From positions 34,038,001 to 34,102,000 of the forward strand of contig OX597824.1 of the NCBI GenBank assembly GCA_951406725.2: a stretch of 64,000 nt of DNA, written 5' to 3'. Positions 4,321 through 57,088 of this stretch are shown piece by piece (within the stretch, counting starts at the first letter, position 1; the number at the start of each line of letters is the position of its first letter). Made by a program: the position numbers and the translations under genes. This DNA comes from Octopus vulgaris (lineage: Eukaryota). The notes beneath the pieces were generated by a model, which saw only the letters and a program-made list of their open reading frames with translations, did not search any database and was not told the origin of the DNA.

Positions 4321-4927
4321 ACATGTTTCCTTAGTGTGATTTTAAACATTGAAACTTGTGCTTATAAACGTTTTATGAAACCAAACTCAGGGGTGACATA
4401 TATTAATATATCCTACTATCATCCACCAATGGCACTTAGGAACTTTGTTTAGGGTATCAGCTGAAAAATATCTAGCCTGTGTTAAAATAAAGAGATCCTG
4501 TATTGCAATTAGGCCCTTGAAATGAGCAGGTTTAAGAATAAGATTAGTATCATACTCAAACCTAGCTCCATGAAGAGAAAAGTTTTGTGGTTCACATCCC
4601 CTTTTCCCTGGATATTGAATTTGTGCGGTAAGATTTTCTCTAGTTTAGTGGCTAAACACCTCCCCAAATGCATAGGTTCAGAAAAATATTTAATAGACAT
4701 AGCTTCAGTGTTTCTTTTAGCTGTGCACCTAATATAAGCAAACTCTTAGAAGGTAGGCCCATACCTGAGACAGAGACAGGATGTTTGTGCAGAGGCAACA
4801 CTCCATATTTACTTAATGGCCAATGAAACACAGACAGTATTGTATATGAGGTGGAGGTGATATCAAAAGATCCAAATGAGCAGTTAGATCTACAGAAATA
4901 TGTGGGCATGACAGAAGGTTCATTCAT
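4321..4927 (+). pseudogene. Decayed Penelope-like element ORF: RT C-terminus, Cys linker, GIY-YIG endonuclease start
   Basis: Manual translation across frameshifts: FLSVILNIETCAYKRFMKPNSGVTYINISYYHPP / KRKVLWFTSPF..GKIFSSLVAKHLPK / KIFNRHSFSVSFSCAPN..CLCRGNTPYLLNGQ*NTDSIVYEVEV..KYVGMTEGSF. Resembles PLE motifs (KPN..YIN..HPP, WFNPP, KIFNR..YSC.PN, VY..YIG.TE). Confidence 0.8.
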
Positions 4928-5077
4928 GCTTTATTGACAATTCTCTGTCAACAAATCACTCTGGACTCATCACCTTCAAAGGGAAGTTTTTGTTCAGTCT
5001 AGCATGTAAAAAATGAATTGGCCCATATATATGTATGTGTGGACACATATATTATTTATACACACACATCTCTCTCC

Positions 5078-5440
5078 CAATTGCTTCCCAACCACATTGT
5101 TCTGGGTTCAATCCCACTGTACAATACCTTGGGTAAGTGTCTTCTATTATAGCCTCAGGCCAACCAAAACTTTGTGAGTGGATTTGGTAGACAGAAACTG
5201 AAAGAAGCCTATCGTGTGTGTGTGTGTGAACATGTGTGTATCTTTGTGTCAGTGTTTGTTCTCCCATCACCACTTGACATCCAGTGTTGGTGTGTTTATA
5301 TCCCTGTAACTTAGCAATTTGGTAAAAGAGACCAATAGAATAAGTACTAGTCTTACAAAATAAAGTCTGGGGTCAATTTGTCAACTAAGACTCTTCAGTG
5401 TGGTGCTCCAGCATGGACACAGTCAACGAATAAAAGGATA
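5078..5440 (+). mobile_element. SINE family A copy
   Basis: Similar to 1705-2143. Confidence 0.75.
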
Positions 5441-8699: not shown

Positions 8700-9528
8700 C
8701 CAGGACTGTTGCCATAGTAACGAAGCTAAAGCATAGTGTGAAGCTGGTTGGCACAGATTGATCTCAAACAATGCTGTGCATGCACACTAAGTTTTCACAT
8801 CCTAGCTCACTTCTGCTGTTTACAGCAGTGCTTTGAAGGAAGGTGTGTAGTGTGTGTTATCGTCGCATTGACCATGACAGAAAAAGTGATTATGACGATA
8901 CCTGCTCAGAGGCCTATGCAAAGTTGCAGAAAGTGTATGGAGAGGAGTGTACAAGTGGTTCAGACGTTTCCAAGATGCCCCCCAAAATGTCAATATTGAC
9001 AAGCGTTCTGGGAGACCCACAATCAGCAGAACTAAGAAAAACATCACAGATGTGTGTGCAGGGTGAGGGGAAATCAGAGTTATCAGAGGATGTGCCGATT
9101 AGTTATATAGTTCAGTTCAGTCCATTATCACTGAAGATTTGGGTATGAGATGCATATCTGCCAAAACTGCTTTCAGCTGACCAAACAGACACTCAGGTTT
9201 CAGTTGCACAAGATCTTGATTGCGTCGAGAATGATGAAAACATTTTGAAAACTTTGCATAGGCCTCTGAGTAGATATCACGAAGCTTTCGGCAAAATTTG
9301 ATGCAGATTCTCTGCTCAACTTTCTCTATCATTGTCAATGTGATGATCACACACTACACACCTTCCTTCCAAGTACTGCTGTAAACAGCGGGAGTAAGCG
9401 AGAATGTTAAAACTTAGTGTACATGCATAATAGAGTTCAAGGTCAATCTGTGCCAAGCAGCTTCACTCTCCATGCTTTAACTTTGTTACTATAGCAACAG
9501 TCCAGATACTTATTGATCAGACCATGTA
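8700..9528. mobile_element. Mariner-derived element made of two convergent 5' halves
   Basis: ~8703-8890 is an imperfect inverse of ~9318-9503. The minus ORF has EKVEQRICIKFC (mariner N-terminus) and the right end reads TA|CATGGTCTGATCAATAAGTATC on the minus strand. Confidence 0.75.
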
Positions 9529-10158
9529 TGCCCTCTTTGCCCTGCTCACTATATCACTGCTTTCCCCCACCACATTTTTATACCCAGGATTTTGTAAGTC
9601 ACAGCAATCCCCACTCCCTACTTGCACCTTCATAGCAATACGTGACCATATATATCATGACCTCTGTACTTCTCTCTTCCTTACTCTATCATCACATCTA
9701 TGCTCCGATCCTTGTTACTTGTGAGTATACCCTGCCACTTCACCATTTCTCTCCTGCTCTCTCTTGCACTTTTGCTGTTTCCCACTCTCTCTCTCTTTCC
9801 CTTGCTCTTCCCTCTGGCTGGGTAGCCATGTATCTCCTCTACAGCAGCACACCTGTTTCTGTTGTATTTCTTGATCTCTCTCTCTCTCTTTCTCTCCCCT
9901 TCTCTTGCTTTTCATTCTGACTAGGTAACCAAGAATCTTTTTTACATCAGCACACCTGTTTCTGTCCGCTGGTACCTCTCTTTCCTCCTCTATCTTCTTC
10001 TCTCTCTCTCTTTCTCTCCCTCTCTTTGTCTCCTCTATCTCTCCCCTCTCTGTCTGTCTATCTGTCTCTGTCTGCCTGTCTGTCTCTCTCTCTCTCACAA
10101 TCGCACTGGGTAACCATGTACCTTCTCTATAGCAAGTTACCTGTTTCTGCCACTCTAT

Positions 10159-10483
10159 TATATTAACATGGAATAAAATACAATATGTATAAGAAGTGCC
10201 TACACATGTTTCAATCCGGTCACTATGTAAACAGTGCTTCGGAATATTTAAACCATGTTAATAGTTTTAGATGTAAAAATTAACAACAAATATGTAAAAT
10301 ATGTAAAAGCATTAGCTTTTTGAATAAGATAGCCCTGAAGATATCTGTACACTTGATGTTATTTTTTACATCTAAAACTATTAACATGGCACAAATATTC
10401 TGAAGCATTATTTACATAGAGACCAGATAGAAACATGTGTAGGCACTTCTTATACATATTGTATTTTATTTCACGTTAATATA
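10159..10483. repeat. Diverged inverted repeat (arms ~10159-10289 / 10353-10483) of a hammerhead-bearing element
   Basis: For example AATAAAATACAATATGTATAAGAAGTGCCTACACATGTTTC versus GAAACATGTGTAGGCACTTCTTATACATATTGTATTTTATT. Confidence 0.9.
10332..10444 (+). ncRNA. Type I hammerhead motif with long loop II
   Basis: GCC-CTGAAGA-TATCTG..76 nt..CAGATA-GAAAC-ATGT-GTA-GGC. Confidence 0.75.
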
Positions 10484-18000: not shown

Positions 18001-20325
18001 TTTGATAGGTTTCGGCCATTATTGGCCCAGGCCATGTCCAACTTAATAGCACCACCTGGTGAAGTCTTTCAAGTCAGAATTTGGGCACTATGGCCCACTC
18101 AAGTAGAGAGTTATTGTTTACAGAGACATATCCGGGTGTAGGGGGTTTATCCGGGATTTCTTGAAGGAATCTGTCCAGAGACTTCTTGAACCCTATAGGG
18201 TCAGTTTCTGTTTTAATGTGTTTTGGTGTAATGTTAAAGAGAGCGGGGCCAATTGAGGTGAAATAATTGTGCCGTATTGTTGTTATGAGATGAGAGTGCG
18301 ATTTTTGTTTTGGGCGGATGGCACGGGGCCCAAGCCTTGGATGTACCTTAAAGGTGATGCCAACATCATTTGGGCAATGCTGATGGAATATTTTCCACAT
18401 CATGCAGATGATGTAGCGCTCACGACGACGTTGGAGAGAATAAAGTTTTAGCTTTTCTAGTCGACCCCAATAGTCGAGGCCTGTCATGCCTTCTATCTTT
18501 TTTGTGATTGCCCTTTGAGGTGCTTCAACTTTTATGATACCTTTTATTGTGTGGGGAGACGACAGTGGACAACAGTATTCAAGGTGGGGTCGGGCAAAAG
18601 TGGAGAAGAGAAGGATAATGGTGTGGATATCTCTCGACTGGAAAGTTCTGAGAATCCAGGAACACATTCTGCGGGCCATGTCAACTTTGGTGTTTATATG
18701 AGTGGCCCAGCTTATGTTGTTGTCCACAATTACTCCCAAGTCTCTGATGTTGTTGGACGCCGCGAGAGTTTCACCTGAAGGAAGGGAGTATGGGAGTTTC
18801 AGGGCATCCTCTTTTCCAAAGTTGATTAACTCAAATTTATCCTTGTTCAGCAGCATATTGTTTTTTTCTGCCCATTGGATAACAGCCAGTAGATCTGACT
18901 GAAGGCATGTCTGGTCACTCGCCTCATTTATGACCTTCTGTAGCTTGGAATCATCTGCAAAGATTTTTATGTTGCTGTGCTTGATGATGTCATTAATGTC
19001 ATTAATGTAAATGATGAAAAGAAGTGGGCCCAGCACAGTGCCTTGCGGAACACCACTACTGACTTTGGCTGGGCTTGATTTTACCCCTTCAACTACAACA
19101 TGTTGAGATCTGTCTGTCAGGAAACACTTGATCCATTTCAGTAACTTTCCAGAGACACCAATGTTGGATAGTTTTTTCAATAGGATCTTGTGATCGACCC
19201 TGTCGAAGGCCTTACTGAAATCAAGGTAGATGACATCGGTGTTGGAGCCCTCTCCCAAAGCTCTCAAAATGTCATCAAAGTGATGCAGGAGCTGCGTTAG
19301 GCAGTCCCTTCCATTACGGAACCCATGTTGGTTAGAGATCAGCCGTCTGTTGCTTTCCAGAAATTGGGTTATTCGAGATCTCACCACCCTCTCAAATACC
19401 TTGATGATATGAGAGGTGAGTGAGATCGGACGGTAGTTCACTGCAAGGGACTTGTTTCCCTTTTTGAAAACTGGGACAACAGACTGGGACAGAAGGTTTT
19501 TTGGAATATAGCCAGCATCCAGTGAGTTTCTCCACAGATTAGCAAGGGGAGGTGCAAGTTGGTGTCGACACACCTTCAGGACACAAGCAGGGAACCTATC
19601 GGGCCTACTGCTGAATTGTGTTTTATTTCGTTTATCGCCACTAAGACATCAGGGGCACTAAACGTTATGTCCGATATAGTGTGTTGGGGGTTGACATCAC
19701 TGATACAGCCCAGATCGGCCATATCAGGATTGCTGAAAACAGAGCAGTATTGTTTCTGCAGTATCTCGGCCATGGATTTGGCATTATCTTGAAGAGTGCC
19801 AGTTTCATCAATTAGAGGGCCAACAATGGAGACAGTGACCCTGCGTTTCCTCGCAAATGAAAAGAACACTTTGGGGTTGAGTTTGATTTTTTCAATGGCC
19901 CACTTCTCCTCAGCTGATCTTTGGTTATTGATGAGGGTCTTCATGCATTGTTGGAGGTTATATTTTTTGGATTCAAGCAGTGCGATAGCCGTCGAATGTG
20001 TGTGTTGCTGTTGGCAGTACTTTAGTTTGTTAATTTTTTTGTTTGTTCTTTTTATTTTTCTGATAATGGTTTTCTGTTTTGGGGGATTCTGCACTTTTTG
20101 TTCACAGGTCTTGGTGGGGAGTGTTTTGCACATATGTCTGTGACGGTGTCTACAAAGATCTGCCAGGATGTTTTATGGTTGGTGGAGATGTGTGTATGTG
20201 TAAAGGACCAGTCAACATGTGATAGCTCGTTCCTGATTGCATCCCAGTTGGCATTATGGAGATCCATGTTGTCAACTGGGTGGGCTGGAGGGAGGTCACT
20301 AGGATTAGCTTTCGGCTGGTGGAAT
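18001..20325 (-). mobile_element. 5'-truncated CR1-group LINE; ORF2 reverse transcriptase open over 18074-19573, frameshifted upstream
   Basis: NYRPISLTS, QHGFRNGR, YLDFSKAFDRV, SGVPQGTVLGPLLF, FADDSKL, RDLGV, LEYCCPL. Flanked by (TA)n on both sides. Confidence 0.93.
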
Positions 20326-22261: not shown

Positions 22262-25200
22262 TCCTACCTAAATAAGATCTGTATGAACCATCATTATTAG
22301 GCCACATCTACTGTGGAACGAGCTGTTCATCCAGTCTATATCAGTCTACTAGGTTATAGCTCCCTAGTAGCCTTTTAAGGCCAGGACTTCCCCTTCTATC
22401 TATCAAGTCAACACTATCCACACATGCGTCAAGAATAGTGTTAAAATCTCCTGCTAAAACTAGATTTTATGACGTTACCAGAAAGCTCTCCAGGTCTTAA
22501 AAAACCCAGCTTATCTACACTCACTAGGAGCGTAAACAGCTACCAGCCTGAAGGAGTTCTCACTTGCGTATGTCACATTTAGGACGATCAGCTTACATTC
22601 TGTTTCCAGAAAGACTGTACTTACCTGTACGTCCAAGTTTTTCTGAACAAGACCATCACGCCCCTGCCTCCCCGTCGACTAGGAGAAATAAATTTCTCAA
22701 AGCCATTTAGAAGAGGTAAGAACACCTGTGGCCTGTTCAACTTGCACTCAGTCACCACACGTATCAATTTCTAGTGACCTGAGGTCATCCAGGAGACAAG
22801 TTTGCTTCCATTTCAACCCTAGGCCACAAACATTTATACAACCTAACTTAATTTCCATGGTAAAAATAAGAAACTTACATTTTGAACATGGGGAGGGGCT
22901 GCACGAATTCACCAGCTTCCCCTTCCTTTTCTTTCTGAGGTGTAGCCGCTGGGCTAAGCACAAGTCGTTTATTGGCCATCTCTTGGTTAACATCTTGTAT
23001 GTCCTGTGAGTATATCATTTTAGATTGTTCAAATAAGTCTGCTTCTATCCTTGCCAACCGTATATTCGGTGGCATACCTTGTATTGTTCATAAAATATAC
23101 AATTTTTTATGCACAGTTATTATTCTCACAAGAACATCATTTTTCTCATTGTACTTCGAAATCCTTTCTCTTAGAGCATTTTTGGAGCGGGGTGGTTGGT
23201 GACGGGTTTCAACTTGGGGGTGGATTGGGGAGATTTTTTCTGTGTGTTTTGCATTGTGTGTAAATATTTTCTTTGTCAGGGGAGGGGAGTCTGGGGCATG
23301 GGCTTTTTTTTCTTTTATGTGAAATCACTGTGGTAAATTCCATTTCCTCTTCGGCTTCCTTCTGTTGTGTGTTTTCTACATTTTGTTCATCCCTTTCTTC
23401 GGCTTTTTCTGTGACGCTTTCTGTGATGCTTTCCATTGCTTTCTTGTTATTTTCTTTTTTTCTTTTTTTTTTTTTTTTATTTTTTCACAGTCCAAGCGAA
23501 TGTACCCTTTTTCTCCACATTTAAAACATCTGGCTCTATGTCCCTCGACTGATACTTTAGCGCTTAGTCCCTCCTCTATAAAAATGCGGTCTGACCTTGA
23601 TTCAAGCACATCATTTGAGGCTTGAACCACCATCTCAAGTGCTTGGCCTTTCCAGTTTAGAGCCTCTCTCTTTTTCATCTGGAGTATTGTTATCTCCCCC
23701 TCTGCATCATAAATTACAGCCGCTGCCATCCATGTTATGTCTTAACCAGCTGGTATTTCCTCTATAGTTATTTTTGTAGTTCTCCGGCCTAGGTAGGTCG
23801 GGAGCAACATTATCTCATCACTTTTTAGAGTTTGGGTCGATATTTCTTTTGCTATTTCAGCGTTCTCAAATTGTGCCTCAACAGTGGTGCTTCTTGGTCC
23901 TCGACCGACATAGGTAATTTTTCCCCATATGGGGGCAAGGCACTTTTCTACTATTTCATTCCTCACAGGCATAATTCTTTTTTCCTTCTGGTTATATTAG
24001 GTTGTCAAGAAAGTTCTTGTGGAATTTTTAATTTTGGTTTTAAATGTTGTATTTTCAAATTAAATTTCATTAAATTACTTTGACTTTATATATCATTTTA
24101 AACCCCATTTTTCGCTCTATTGAATCATGCTACTCTTTTTCTTTTTGAATAATTAGGCCATTTTTTCCAGAACGTTGACTACAACATGGACAAAGAGCAA
24201 ATTCACACAATTTTCTTATTTCAGTTCAAGCTAGGGCAAAAAGCTGCTGAAACAGCTCGCAATATCAATGATGCATTTGGCCCAGGAACCACTCATGAAC
24301 GTAGTGGTGATGAGAGTCTTGAAGATGATAAGCGTAGTGGTCAGCCATCGAATGTTGACAACGATCAACTAAGAGCCTTAGTGGAAGCCAATTCATGCAC
24401 AACTGTTCGAGAGCTTGCTTCTGAATTAGACGTAATGTATACAATTTCCAGCCACTTGAAAGAGATTGGAAAAACAAAAATACTTGAGAAATGGGTGCTG
24501 CAAAAATTGAACAACAACCAAAAAAAAAAACGCCATTTTGAAGTGTCATTTTTTCCTACTTTTATGCAACAAAAACAACCTGTTTCTTAACCGGATTGTG
24601 ACTTTCAATGTAAAGTGGATTCTTTACAACAATTGGCAATGCTCAGCACAGTGGTTGGATGCCGACAAAGCTCCACGGCACTTCCCAAAGCCAAAGTTGC
24701 ACCAAAAGAAGGCCATGGTGACTGTTTGGTGGTCTGCAGCCAGTTTCATCCATCACAGCTTTTTGGATCCAGGAGAAACCATTATGGCGGAGAAGTACTG
24801 TCAGCAAATGGATGAAATACCTAAGAAACTCCGACAGCAACAGCCAACATTGGTTAATAGAAAAGGACCAATTCTTCTCCATGACAACACTCAGCCACAC
24901 GTCGCACAACTGACCCTGCAGAAGTTGGGCAAATTGGGCTATGAAACTCTGCCTCATCCACCATACTCACCAGACCTCTCGCCTACCGACTACCACTTTT
25001 TCAAGCATCTCGACAACTTCCTGCATGAGAAATGCTTCAAAAACCAAGACGATGCCAAACACGCCTTCAATGACTTCATCACCACCAGAACACAGGATTT
25101 TTACACTACTGGCATAAATAAACATGTTTTGTGTTGGCAAAAGTGTGTTGATTCTAATGGTGCTTATTTCAACTAATAAAGTTTTGTTTGAGCTGAGATA

Positions 25201-28141: not shown

Positions 28142-28146
<5 letters not shown>

Positions 28147-28454
28147 TGCAGCGTGGAAGGTGTTTGTAAGCCATTTAAGAAACACACAAAAGCCATTCGA
28201 TTCATTTCAACATTTAAGTTTAATTTGTCAAAATATTTTCATCGCTTTAAGACCGTGACCTGTTCACAGACAAAAATCCGTGCTGCATCTTAAAGCGACA
28301 AAAATATTTTGACAAATTAAACTTAAATGTTGAAGTGAATCGAACGGCTTTTGTGTGTTTCTTAAATGGCTTACAAACACATTCCACGCTGCAATTGTTA
28401 TCGTTCCAGCACACGATCTCAGATCAAATCACTTGCTATGCGAGTACATCTCCG

Positions 28455-28457
<3 letters not shown>
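28142..28457. mobile_element. Inverted-repeat hammerhead element in a (TA)n tract (same family as 41553-41756)
   Basis: Arms 28142-28252 / 28288-28398. G3-C8 hammerhead motif on the minus strand at 28224-28274. Confidence 0.85.
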
Positions 28458-40360: not shown

Positions 40361-41552
40361 TATGCTTCAGGCATATTAGAACCCATTCCGATATAATCAT
40401 TGACTATGATATCTAAAAGGTATTTGTAGAAAATTTCCCAACGGCAAAATACAGTGAATGGCTTTCTTACAGGTTCGAATATATCTTTGAACTGGTAACA
40501 AGTCTGTACTATATATAGTAAGCCATACTTAGAGAAGAGTTAGCTATATGAATATATTAATGATTAGTTTACAGGTTTGTTTTATTTTAAATCAAGTTCT
40601 GATGGACATGATTTACTCAGTACGAAAGTTGAGATAGTTAAGAAAGATGGAAAAATAAAAGAAACACATTTAAAAAGAAATGAAAAAGCGGAATGACAAC
40701 AAAAGCTTAAAGGTAGGAAGAAATATTTGGCCACAGGAGTGGATACGTTTAAAAAGTCGGTCCGTTAATTAAGAGGAGAAAACCAGTCTTTGAAGTGCAG
40801 ATGATGCATACCAAATAAGGAAGCGCGATGTGCAAACCTAAAGGAAACGAGAAGTTGTGGACGAGATAAAGTTGGATAAGCCAGAAGTAATCGTAGTAAA
40901 CAATATATGATAATATCAAAATTATAAGAGAAGAAAAATTAGTAGAATATTATAATACGGCGATACGACAACCGAAACGTTGCCTTATAATACATTAATA
41001 AGACATTAAAAAAATGATAGTAGAATTATAGAGATGATTAAAAATAAAGACGATTATAGAAGTGTTTCTATCCGGTTGAGTGTCAACATTAATAGCAAGG
41101 TGAGAGAAAGGAAGAGAGTATGAGATGAAAGAGAAGTGTCGAAGAGAGAGAAAAAAAGTATTAAACAAAATGGTTGCATAAGCTTGTGGGGGAAAAAAAA
41201 CAGAATCTAGTTAGTTGGATGCAGGGAGAGATTTTGTATGATCCATAGGCTTTATGATAGTATCATAAAGAAGATTAATATAAAGATTACTAAAAAATTC
41301 AGTGAAGCGGGGAGTAGAAGTGTTTATATAAAGGGAGATAACTCTCAACGTGCTTCTGGTGTGTCTTTGTAGATCTAATCATTGGTAGTACATATGTACG
41401 AAGGGGCAAGAATATACATATATACACATGCCTGAACGCCCACACACACACACACATATAGGTATAACTATATAGGTGTTCCCCACCACATCGAATTTGT
41501 TTCCTCATAACTTTCAGAAAAATGGATTTTTAAAAGAAATATTCTACAAATA

Positions 41553-41756
41553 CAACAGCACGGATTTTTGTCAGTGAACAGGTCGCGGTCTTAAAGCGAC
41601 GAAAATATTTTGACAAATTAAACTTAAATGTTGAAGTGAATCGAACGGCTTTAGTGTGTTTCTTAAATGGCTTACAAACACCTTCCAGGCTGCAATTGTT
41701 TTCGTTTCAGCACACGATCTCAGATCAAATCACTTGCTATGCAAGTACATCTCCGT
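41553..41756 (+). mobile_element. ~204-bp hammerhead-bearing non-autonomous retroelement with 15-bp TSD
   Basis: AATATTCTACAAATA at 41538-41552 and 41757-41771. Body nearly identical to the 28142-28457 family. Confidence 0.88.
41567..41617 (+). ncRNA. Minimal type I hammerhead motif, G3-C8 variant
   Basis: TTTGTCA-GTGAACA-G-GTCGC-GGTCTTAAA-GCGAC-GAAA-ATAT-T-T-TGACAAA. Stem I 7 bp, stem II 5 bp, stem III palindrome AATATT. Confidence 0.8.
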
Positions 41757-42495
41757 AATATTCTACAAATATCTTTTAGATAATGTACAGGGTGGTCCGA
41801 AAGCCTCGTCGCCACCTGTAAATATTGTTTTAATTTTCTATCATCAAGGAGAGAGTTTCACAAGAGCGATACCAGAATAAATAACAGTTGAAAGACGCTG
41901 TTTCAGCAGCCTTTGCAGCAATCACCAAAGCACTGCTTCATAAAATATCACACAGGACATAACGCCGCATCATTTTGTGCCTCGAAATGATGGTGTTCAT
42001 ACAGCTCTTCTCGATGTGTGACAGTGTCAGTATCAATGAAAGGGAACATACTAAAACCAGCACATGTGTTTGATATTATTATATTGTTCTTCTATTGTTC
42101 TTATTACTTTTCGGTAGAGGGTGGCAAAGACTTTAGGACCACCCGATAGATTGCGATTATGTCAGAATTTGATATGGAAAAGAGAAGAAAACAAAGTTGG
42201 TGCCCACGCACAGATACATACTGTCGCATATCGCGTATATATCCACAAAATGAAAGTTGAAAATTTGTAGACATATACGTGATATGTATCAGAATGCATG
42301 TGTGAGCTCCTAACTTTTTTTTTACATTAAATTTTAATACAGTCGTTGACTACACCATCTGAACGGTATTTGTAGAATATTCCATTAAAAATTCTCGATT
42401 TTTCTATAAGTTATGAAGAAACAAAGTCAGAGGGCACAGTTATGTAGATTTGCCATATATGTGCGTATTGTTAGCTCTTGGTTTTATCATATCTA

Positions 42496-54720: not shown

Positions 54721-57088
54721 TCTATCTCTTATGATAAAAGGCAGATTTTCTCTGCCTCCCAAACCGCTCATTTTTTATACAATTGTACAATATAGAATTT
54801 CTTCAATTGGAATTTACCTATCATTTTTCCAAGTAGATTCCATTGAGTCATGGCATGTAAAGTTTTTTCAATTTCACCCCCAATTAAGCAAAAATTCGAG
54901 AAAACTCAATATTTTACGATTTTCCTCTTTCATTTCAAGTGCTTCACTCCTACAATTACCACTACACTTTCTCCTCCTTTCTCTTTGCAAGTGTGCAACA
55001 ATTAAAGGGAAAGTATTTATATAAAAGGGATGAGCAATTAATACTGGTCATCCTTTTTGCTAGAGGAAGATCCGCTATGGTCTTATATGCTACACCACTG
55101 GTTTTCAATTCATATTAATCAAATAAATATTCAATTTTTCACCCTTATTATGTGTGTGTGTATTAGCAATTCGTATAAAATTGCATCAATGACTTGAACT
55201 TGAATAAGTGGTTTCACATAAATGGGGATACATTAAAAAGGTTTGTTGTTATTATTATTACTGTTTGACTATTGTAATCATGTTTGTTGGTTCCTCGTCA
55301 GGGAAACGTTGTTGCGTTGCATTTGTTAAATAATTGTAAACCGTAATCCTCCCCCTTTCGGAGAAGGGGCTTTGGTTATTGTTTTAAAATTGAATTGTGT
55401 CCCTGTTTGGGGAAATTGACAATATTTTCACCGTCTTTACGGAAGCATTTTTGTTAAAATACCTTCGATAGAAGAAAGTCCAAAAATAAACTTCGCTGCA
55501 GCCGTACACTTTTATACAAGAGGGAGGACAAGATACAATTGATCGAAATTGCAAGAGACGGGCCTACAATTCCAGTCTGTTATATATTTTGAGTATTGTT
55601 ATCACTAGCGATATCAAGATATAACTTTCTAGTTTGTATTTTATGTGTAGATGTATATATATATAGATGTACATGTAATATGTACACATATATATATATA
55701 CACATATATACATGCATAATATATCTACCCATACACACACACGTATACACACACACACACACATACATAGGGGCAGGTGTGGCTGTGTGGTAACAAACTA
55801 CGTTCGAAGATACTGTACTTGATATGGGTGGTAGTGCCTTGCCGGTCTATGGCCTACCTTCAACAAACCGGGAAGGTACAAACACTCTGTCTTCACATTT
55901 GCTGCGTGAGACATGTTTTAATGTTGACGAGCTTGCCGAGTACATAGCCGACAATGAGCCAAAGCTCCTTCCAGAACAGAAGTTTGCTTACAACTCCGTT
56001 GTTAATTCAGTCCGGGCCAAAGCTGTAGGGATATTTTTCCTGGACGCTGGGAAAACTTTTCTCAACAAATTAATATTGGCTGAGATTAGGCGAACACAAG
56101 GCATTGCCCTAGCTGTGGCATCATCTGGAATTGCGGCTACTTTGTTGCCAGGCGGCAGGACAGCTCACTCCACTTTCAAGCTTCCGCTTGACTTAGCGAA
56201 GACTGAGACACCAACTTGCAACATCAGTAACAGCTCCGATCAGGGAGAAGTCTTCAGACGATGCAAGCTTATCGTTTGGGATGAATGCACGATGGCCCAC
56301 AGAGGTGCTCTTGAGGCACTAGATAGATCTCTCAGAGACATCAAACACTCTTCAGCTCCCATGGGAGGCATAACACTTCTTCTTTCAGGGGACTTCCGAC
56401 AAACACTTCCCGTTATTCCCAAAAGGACTAGAACTGATGCAGTAAGTGCGTGTCTTAAGTCATCCACATTGTGGCCACTGGTGAAGACTCTCAAACTTCA
56501 CACCAATATGCGTGCTCATATGTGACGTAATATCACATCAGCAGCATTTTCTCACACCCTCCTTGCACTTGGCGAAGGCAAAATACCAGGGGATGAAAAT
56601 GGTAATATTGCCATCGATTCCATTTGTACCATTGTTAAAATGCCTTCTGATCTCAGAGATGCAGTGTTCCCAGATGTACAAGCTAATTATCAGAATATGG
56701 ATTGGATTGGCCAAAAGGGCTATTCTGGCCCTGAGGAATAAAACTGTTCACCATATTAATGATGAAATGCTAAAACTCATTCCTGGGGATGTCTATGTAT
56801 ATAAGTCTATCGAGGACGTCATCAACTATCCAATAGAGGTAATCAATTCCTTTGAGCCCCCTGGACTACCACCACACATTCTCAAACTTAAAGTTGGTGC
56901 TCCTATAATGCTCATTAGAAATTTGGTTCCCCCAAAACAATGCAATGGCACACGTTTGATCGTTAAGTCCTTATCTCCCACCGTAAACTTATATCAATAT
57001 TTGCCTGAATAATCATCATAATTCAGTGCAATCATCAACAGTACTTTCAAGCAATTCAGCCCCGAGCATCGCCGGGCAATTCTGCTTG
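54721..57088 (+). mobile_element. Internally deleted Helitron
   Basis: Putative 5' A|TCTATCTCTTATGATAAAAG, PIF1 helicase relic, and 3' hairpin CCCG..CGGG (57061-57076) followed by CTTG|T (degenerate CTAG). The 5' boundary is less certain. Confidence 0.7.
55824..56985 (+). pseudogene. Helitron PIF1-family helicase pseudogene
   Basis: FFLDAGKTF (Walker A missing PGGT), AVASSGIAATLLPGGRTAHSTFKLP, IVWDECTM, GDFRQTLPV, GLPPHILKLKVGAPIMLIRNL..CNGTRL. Frameshifted. Confidence 0.92.

What the first reader, a model, noticed from the sequence alone, without database searches (positions are those of the whole stretch)
41538..41771. ~204-bp G3-C8 hammerhead element with a 15-bp target-site duplication
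AATATTCTACAAATA flanks the insert on both sides, and that sequence belongs to the host MITE's inverted end (inverse at ~42368-42382), so the empty site can be reconstructed. The element is a hammerhead plus a ~140-nt tail. Its 5' start (CAGCACGGATTTTT) and 3' end (CATCTCCGTAA) coincide with those of the 28142-28457 copy, implying a discrete mobile unit inserted by target-primed reverse transcription (inference).
Basis: partly seen in the sequence, partly recalled or inferred. Interest (0 to 1): 0.85.

Follow-up and report, generated by a model that had tools for sequence, protein, structure and literature searches.

The report
Penelope retrotransposon tip with swapped hammerhead
This 204-base insert is an end-piece of an abundant Penelope-type jumping gene; it carries a predicted self-cutting RNA (hammerhead) with two core letters swapped and was likely copied from the start of the element's own messenger RNA, not from an independent mini-element.

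Summary
In detail: an exact 15-bp duplication flanks a 204-bp insert, and 19 of 19 other host-repeat loci lack it. The insert is not a stand-alone unit. It is the terminal repeat plus 'tail' of a young Neptune/Nematis-type Penelope-like element (PLE): 5' UTR, minimal type I hammerhead, and exactly the first 30 codons of the RT + GIY-YIG ORF. The genome has 3,583 exact hits to its 3' end. Its ends fit the published internal-priming mechanism of PLEs: two start sites inside the ORF (+33, +90). Inverted pairs use one of each (31 of 41, never two alike). 5' ends pile up at AGATG, often behind an extra G, which suggests an uncleaved, capped RNA template. Short and long copies interleave on a tree, so there is no separate SINE lineage. 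New details: a natural G3-C8 core (85 of 95 copies, none C3-G8; a sister family has C3-G8), which my searches found in print only as an engineered mutant, and multi-unit arrays under one TSD that look like nascent retrozymes. Cleavage and expression are untested. Verdict: new variant of a known kind, moderate interest.

The parts
41538..41552 (+). Left copy of the target-site duplication (host sequence)
   Evidence: Exact 15-mer match to 41757-41771
41553..41555 (+). CAA, three bases not in the parent (parent has ATG here); probably untemplated junction bases
   Evidence: Comparison with parent copies; origin inferred
41556..41756 (+). PLE pseudo-LTR plus tail: the element-derived part
   Evidence: 92-96% identical to ends of ORF-bearing copies; 196/201 to a copy that continues into the ORF (L277)
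41567..41617 (+). Predicted minimal type I hammerhead with G3-C8 core; predicted cut after U41610
   Evidence: Sequence and fold; pair counts in 95 copies; activity untested
41667..41756 (+). Start codon and first 30 codons of the PLE ORF
   Evidence: Same frame continues into the ORF in L119 and L227; that N-terminus matches a sister PLE, 35% over 182 aa, E 1e-35
41700..41756 (+). 57-nt tail between the two inferred RT start sites (about 41699 = ORF +33, and 41756 = +90)
   Evidence: End tallies
41757..41771 (+). Right copy of the TSD; first 3 nt (AAT) also match the parent's next codon
41493..42428 (.). Host foldback repeat (356 bp once both inserts are removed; arms 67% complementary); carries the inverse of the TSD motif at 42367-42381
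41788..42146 (.). Second nested insert in the same host arm: 359-bp element with imperfect terminal inverted repeats and TA on both sides (Tc1/mariner-like, label recalled)
   Evidence: Sequence; host motif resumes across it
28142..28290 (-). Second window copy, inverted arm: from AGATG to the upstream RT site; decayed hammerhead
28288..28457 (+). Second window copy, forward arm ending at the tail, in a (TA)n tract; 3-nt overlap with the inverted arm

Best explanation
The insert is the terminal repeat plus tail of a Penelope-like retrotransposon (5' UTR, predicted G3-C8 minimal hammerhead, first 30 codons), likely made when the element's own RT primed inside the ORF at +90 and copied back towards the 5' end of a probably uncleaved mRNA. 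[quoted passage not shown] (2) Inferred: the mRNA starts at AGATG, 5 nt upstream of 41556, and is capped. (3) Inferred from Frangieh 2024 and the end tallies: the GIY-YIG domain makes staggered nicks in AT-rich DNA and RT starts at +90 or +33. One nick extended gives a plain copy like this one; both nicks extended, one per site, give inverted pairs like 28142-28457. (4) Shown: repair left a 12-15 bp TSD. (5) Inferred: the hammerhead does not define either end of the insert and would cut only as a dimer or with protein help.
For: Unit found with 9 of 9 ORF-bearing family copies fetched, 8 of 9 with the tail. Unit runs into the ORF in L119 and L227. GIY-YIG above the Pfam cut-off. Of 90 copies picked by their 3' 25-mer (first 90 of 3,583): 0 continue into the ORF, 35 abut microsatellite, 48 have an inverted arm, and 37 of those 48 arms end at the upstream site. 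TSD of 7 bp or more in 31 of 55 non-microsatellite copies against 4.6% of 2,970 mismatched flank pairs; 10 bp or more in 22 of 55 against 0.4%. In loci not picked by their 3' end, 31 of 41 inverted pairs have one arm at each site, none has two alike, and 10 have one or both ends elsewhere. 5' ends within -3..+5 of the ATGCAGC start in 18 of 35 plain short copies; only 2 of 90 start within 3 nt of the predicted cut. Base before AGATG: G 942 against A/T 617, where T includes a parent variant and A was 24 of the first 100 listed; after four A/T bases, G 195 against C 59. Upstream of that G nothing is shared in 30 of 30 loci. Copies primed 11-216 nt further into the ORF exist, one 196/201 identical to the window copy. 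Frangieh 2024 (PMC11167929, parts 1-3 of 4 read) showed two internal RT starts in the ORF, both strands nicked and extended, and unprocessed RNA as the dominant template.
Against: No RNA data show a start, a cap or a cut. In roughly half of the 30 G loci the G could be templated by an adjacent inverted arm, and I did not count direct A/T joins in the AT-flank context. The sequence just upstream (CTAAC, pyrimidine tract, CAG) also looks like a 3' splice site. This copy itself starts 5 nt short of AGATG with CAA, so it carries no G. The tail (57 nt) is longer than the 30-40 nt in print. A short copy cannot be assigned to the upstream or downstream repeat of its template. Variation within the family is decay with essentially no compensatory pairs, so it does not support the fold.
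Confidence: 0.82

Rival explanations
1. The short copies are a self-propagating non-autonomous family (SINE-like, or a non-LTR retrozyme) derived from the PLE end, transcribed from short copies or arrays and mobilised in trans, possibly through circular RNA.
For: Most copies are short: 83 of 90 lack the upstream parent sequence. L003 has five units with (TA)n spacers under one 12-bp TSD in a non-microsatellite target; L008 has four units with a likely degenerate TSD and the start codon lost in all four. If the promoter is internal, as in Penelope (PMC2377424 passages), short copies could be transcribed. Li et al. 2026 (bioRxiv, parts 1-3 of 5 read) derive animal retrozymes from pLTRs.
Against: Short and long copies interleave; the window copy groups with a parent-linked copy (a 199-column tree with little resolution). 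The AA-CAGCAC start is in 9 of 33 best-hit units but 1 of 50 unbiased units and is not one clade. None of the 90 unbiased copies was scored as a direct tandem. Ends do not map to the predicted cut. Units within L003 differ in a mosaic way, which a single circle would not give.
Confidence: 0.1
2. The copies are ordinary 5'-truncated products primed in the downstream repeat of a long RNA; the pile-up at AGATG marks a splice acceptor or an RT stall at the hammerhead's base, not a transcript start.
For: 448 exact hits carry an acceptor-like upstream stretch. In D. virilis Penelope the intron end maps to the 5' side of helix I (PMC4209133). The two ends of the unit can pair.
Against: A spliced template would bring shared exon-1 sequence; none is seen in 30 of 30 loci. 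A stall does not predict a G excess over the templated C. Copies that start at AGATG and run further into the ORF exist (L275, L270, L271).
Confidence: 0.2
3. The hammerhead-like fold is a catalytically dead relic; G3-C8 is tolerated because cleavage is not needed.
For: Hammerhead mutants did not affect insertion in vitro (PMC11167929). The inserted base after A9 is G, outside the published H consensus. The sister family has C at position 9. Eight of nine retrozyme dimers tested by Li et al. did not cleave.
Against: A two-base swap that keeps the 3-8 pair is fixed in the family (85 of 95, none C3-G8). The sister family keeps the same architecture with different paired bases. The engineered double mutant partly restores cleavage.
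Confidence: 0.3

Closest known systems
Poseidon PLE of Anolis carolinensis (Frangieh et al. 2024, PMC11167929)
   Same: Hammerhead at the pLTR-ORF junction; genomic ends at two sites inside the ORF with the tail between them; AT-rich targets; template apparently uncleaved.
   Different: Here the hammerhead lies wholly in the 5' UTR (cut 56 nt before ATG); sites are +33 and +90 rather than about +111-118 and an adjacent site; the ORF has a Cys linker (Neptune/Nematis type); G3-C8 is natural, not engineered.
Minimal type I hammerheads of metazoan PLEs (Cervera and De la Pena 2014, PMC4209133)
   Same: Extra base between 9 and 10.1, G10.1-C11.1, palindromic stem/loop III, U-rich 5' and AU-rich 3' flanks, mostly solo copies.
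   Different: Core pair G3-C8 instead of C3-G8 or U3-A8; the extra base is G; stem I is longer (7 bp).
Neptune/Nematis PLE clades (Craig et al. 2021, PMC8557442, passages)
   Same: RT, CX2-5CxxC linker, C-terminal GIY-YIG; pLTRs, inverted 5' copy, tail at one end only, (TA)n preference.
   Different: Tail 57 nt against 30-40 nt; clade not placed on a reference tree.
Animal non-LTR retrozymes (PMC7761336 passages; Li et al. 2026 bioRxiv 10.64898/2026.07.22.740005)
   Same: 150-300 bp hammerhead-bearing unit related to a pLTR; tandem arrays exist at L003 and L008.
   Different: The window copy is a monomer with a TSD; most copies are dispersed; spacers are (TA)n; no circular RNA shown; the autonomous parent is identified directly.

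Membership tests
Penelope-like element (EN+, C-terminal GIY-YIG) | Single ORF with RT and C-terminal GIY-YIG endonuclease | tested here: met
   1025-aa open frame in L117; PF01541 25.4 bits over cut-off 22.6. RT motifs (DKSG, SLYPSI, YSRYVDD, LPVLD) read by eye, labels recalled; Pfam RVT_1 did not hit; relatives named 'reverse transcriptase domain'
Penelope-like element (EN+, C-terminal GIY-YIG) | pLTR repeated before and after the ORF, carrying a hammerhead | tested here: met
   L119 units at 5225-5425 and 9486-9682 flank the ORF
Penelope-like element (EN+, C-terminal GIY-YIG) | Tail at one end only; inverted 5' copy; variable TSD; (TA)n bias | tested here: met
   31 of 41 pairs one site each; 48 of 90 inverted; TSD 7-14 bp; 35 of 90 abut microsatellite
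Neptune or Nematis clade | CX2-5CxxC linker between RT and EN; two Cys between GIY and YIG | tested here: met
   CQSNCAVC and VYQIKC...C...YIGET in L117; feature from PMC8557442
Neptune or Nematis clade | RT phylogeny with named reference elements | not tested
   No named reference set was at hand
Minimal type I hammerhead | Stems I and II, base between 9 and 10.1, G10.1-C11.1, GAAA, palindromic III, UH at the cut | tested here: met
   two copies cofold with intermolecular helices; features from PMC4209133
Minimal type I hammerhead | Core CUGANGA (C3-G8) | tested here: not met
   G3-C8 in 85 of 95 hits, C3-G8 in 0; Rfam no hit. Watson-Crick 3-8 pair is kept
Minimal type I hammerhead | Self-cleavage | not testable with these tools
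   Needs an assay
Non-LTR retrozyme | Two or more consecutive hammerhead-bearing units | tested here: inconclusive
   Not met at 41553 (monomer) nor scored in the 90 unbiased copies; met at L003 and L008
Non-LTR retrozyme | Circular RNA intermediate | not testable with these tools
   Only contigs of uncertain library type were available
Independent SINE-like family | Short-only lineage with its own diagnostic changes and fixed 5' end | tested here: not met
   Tree and variant table, limited to copies held and weakly resolved
MITE (host repeat) | Terminal inverted repeats | tested here: inconclusive
   Whole 356 bp is a 67% foldback; arms occur one to five times per locus in both orientations
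MITE (host repeat) | Own TSD and defined termini | not tested
   Boundaries not resolved

The most novel reading that the evidence does not exclude
This family carries the first natural, active G3-C8 hammerhead, fixed in thousands of copies beside a C3-G8 sister family. Its insertions record the PLE mechanism in the genome: a capped, uncleaved mRNA as template, and a protein dimer that uses a different internal RT start site for each nicked strand. Its multi-unit arrays under one TSD are retrozymes in the making.
Probability: 0.3. Interest if true: 0.62.

Novelty: new variant of a known kind. Interest (0 to 1): 0.42.

Why it matters
Short hammerhead-bearing PLE fragments are known, so the insert itself is ordinary for such a genome. 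Three things would interest specialists. (1) A natural G3-C8 core would be missed by the usual CUGANGA descriptors and was missed by Rfam here, so hammerhead censuses may undercount; it is also a natural version of the classic rescue mutant. (2) The role of PLE hammerheads and the origin of tails and inversions are open questions. This young family gives countable predictions (RNA start, two RT sites, one per arm) and near-intact ORFs to test them. (3) Arrays under one TSD link PLE ends to retrozymes within one family.

Tried and rejected
Rfam gave only microsatellite-driven miRNA noise on the window and no hammerhead on 41500-41800. The repeat finder was swamped by microsatellites. A 69-bp DNA search of the genome returned nothing because common words are skipped; a pattern search replaced it. 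The 67-codon open frame across the whole unit is not the ORF: it has stops in the parent and no Pfam hit. The 30-aa peptide alone gave no BLASTP alignment to the sister family; the longer N-terminus did. My generic hammerhead pattern found nothing, even the known site, because of a script flaw, and the pair table was one base off; one search is the corrected one. The four-way alignment cut off the sister's 5' half and is uninformative for it. The idea that AA-CAGCAC is an inherited 5' end was rejected as ranking bias. The idea that it is a spliced junction found no shared upstream exon. Expression: no RNA holder listed; the runs are contigs whose RNA status is a guess, and they show no start, end or strand, so they are not used as evidence. 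Earlier scan notes: nothing shown. Print searches for natural G3-C8 returned only engineered mutants and natural U3-A8; octopus plus hammerhead returned nothing relevant. Lunse 2017 and Arkhipova 2017 could not be read, one supplement file of PMC4209133 was not searchable, and bioRxiv supplements are closed; any of these may list a G3-C8 variant.

Full report
Observation. The 15-mer AATATTCTACAAATA lies at 41538-41552 and 41757-41771, with its exact inverse at 42367-42381. The 204 bp between fold into a minimal type I hammerhead shape: stem I 41567-73/41611-17, core GUGAACA with G3 at 41574 and C8 at 41579, an extra G, stem II 41582-86/41596-600, GAAA, a palindromic A-UA-U and U17 at 41610. 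The whole insert folds at z = -2.0, with 6 of 200 shuffles as stable. Rfam does not recognise it. I fetched 19 other loci of the host repeat out of 57 matches listed; none holds the element, and most arms read through the motif unbroken. The insertion and TSD are real. The host is a 356-bp, 67% foldback that also holds a second, 359-bp TA-flanked insert; I did not establish that it is a MITE.

Family. The genome is 2.8 Gb in 227 contigs. The closest named protein relative of the parent ORF is from Octopus vulgaris, so an octopod host is likely. A 25-mer from the 3' end has 3,583 exact hits and its reversed control none. Some copies share upstream sequence (448 exact hits). [quoted passage not shown] Of ten long loci fetched, nine belong to this family and all nine carry the unit or its tail-less form, eight with the tail, about 1 kb after the stop; the tenth is a sister family (51% identical over the C-terminal query) with no DNA match. 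In L119 the unit also runs straight into the ORF. The ATG is 41667 in the window copy, and codon 30 ends exactly at 41756, the insert's last base. The N-terminus is 35% identical over 182 aa to the sister's. So the insert is the pLTR plus tail of a PLE with Neptune/Nematis features (PMC8557442, passages). Clade placement on a tree was not done.

Ends and TSDs. I analysed the first 90 listed of the 3,583 hits, all on one contig. None continues into the ORF, 35 abut microsatellite, 7 extend into upstream parent sequence and 48 have an inverted 5' arm. In the 55 remaining after dropping the 35 microsatellite-flanked copies (which include the 7 long ones), 31 have a TSD of 7-14 bp against 4.6% of 2,970 mismatched flank pairs; 24 have none that long. 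There are two 3' ends, at ORF +33 and +90. In four sets of loci not chosen by 3' end, 31 of 41 inverted pairs have one arm at each site, none has two alike, and 10 have an end elsewhere. The few sister-family ends seen fall at about +26 and +73 to +85. Frangieh et al. [quoted passage not shown] That accounts for the 3' end without a separate element. Of 22 exact unit-to-ORF junction hits, the 15 I measured stop 11-216 nt further on; one is 196/201 identical to the window copy. Three loci are near full length (L119, L227, L289).

The 5' end. 18 of 35 plain short copies start within -3..+5 of ATGCAGC, and 24 of 48 inverted arms reach -2..+6; only 2 of 90 forward arms start within 3 nt of the predicted cut. 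The base before AGATG is G in 942 hits and A/T in 617; T includes a parent variant, and A was 24 of the first 100 listed. After four A/T bases the counts are G 195 and C 59, although C is the parent base. Upstream of the G nothing is shared in 30 of 30 loci, but in about half the G could come from an inverted arm. In L1, an extra G at full-length 5' junctions is read as the copied cap (PMC11702581, passage). I infer a capped RNA start at AGATG, about 58 nt before the cut, and so an uncleaved template. The context resembles an initiator (recalled) but also a splice acceptor; Penelope has both an internal promoter and an intron there (PMC2377424 passages; PMC4209133). No RNA data could decide. 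The window copy stops 5 nt short and has CAA instead.

Hammerhead. In 95 hits from 73 of the 90 loci, the 3-8 pair is G-C in 85, G-U in 4, other or unread in 6, and never C-G; the 11-base core is intact in 66. Within-family changes are decay, not covariation. The sister family has, about 100 nt before its ATG, a similar fold with C3-G8, the same extra G, a stem II with one G-C to A-U swap, G-C at 15.2-16.2, and C at position 9 (read by eye). The features listed by Cervera and De la Pena 2014 (parts 1-2 of 4 and supplement passages) are met apart from the core swap and the identity of the extra base. Natural U3-A8 is in print. G3-C8 appeared in my searches only as an engineered double mutant with partial activity. 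Lunse 2017 and Arkhipova 2017 were not available, so first report is not established. A repeat annotation of O. vulgaris lists active Penelope families and has no occurrence of 'hammerhead' or 'ribozyme' in its main text (PMC13282606, passages).

Independent element? On a tree of units at least 93% identical, short and parent-linked copies interleave and the window copy groups with a long one; resolution is low. Against this, L003 holds five units with (TA)n spacers under one 12-bp TSD, and L008 holds four with a likely degenerate TSD. These meet the tandem criterion for non-LTR retrozymes (Li et al. 2026, parts 1-3 of 5; PMC7761336 and PMC6765202 passages). They do not prove ORF-free mobility, because an array upstream of a full element would give the same product.

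Verdict. Real insertion, real TSD, known kind of element. It is a PLE terminal fragment by membership, and it works like the lizard Poseidon element as far as genomic ends can show. The natural core swap, the strict one-site-per-arm rule and the cap-like G are the new, testable points. Interest 0.42; new variant of a known kind.

Noticed in passing
window 41788-42146: 359-bp element with imperfect terminal inverted repeats (starts CAGGGTGGTCC) and TA on both sides, nested in the same host arm as the PLE fragment; Tc1/mariner-like by recalled end motif.
   Followed up: partly
L003 1501-2647: Five units separated by (TA)n spacers of unequal length, bounded by one 12-bp TSD in a non-microsatellite target; units differ in a mosaic pattern.
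   Followed up: partly
L008 729-1705: One parent-linked unit plus three short units, all with the start codon changed to ATA, and a likely degenerate TSD around the whole block.
   Followed up: partly
L120 3442-7377; L147-L166: Very young sister PLE family with many 1310-1312-aa open frames, a C3-G8 hammerhead-like fold with C at position 9, an Asn-rich insertion in the ORF, and the same two-site end pattern.
   Followed up: partly
L119 about 4380-5200: The PLE's 1-kb 3' region is largely (CATA)n/(CA)n microsatellite, so the element spreads microsatellite as it moves.
   Followed up: no
window 18074-19648 (-): LINE-type reverse transcriptase frame, Pfam RVT_1 E 6e-31.
   Followed up: no
window 55794-57012 (+): PIF1 helicase in two overlapping frames (PF05970, PF21530), probably a Helitron remnant.
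   Followed up: no
window 24153-25176 (+): Mariner-type transposase pieces in two frames (PF17906, PF01359).
   Followed up: no
window 40391-40437: Short further match to the host foldback arm.
   Followed up: no
window 10196-10446: A 250-bp near-palindrome, seen only as a below-threshold Rfam miRNA match; probably another foldback element.
   Followed up: no
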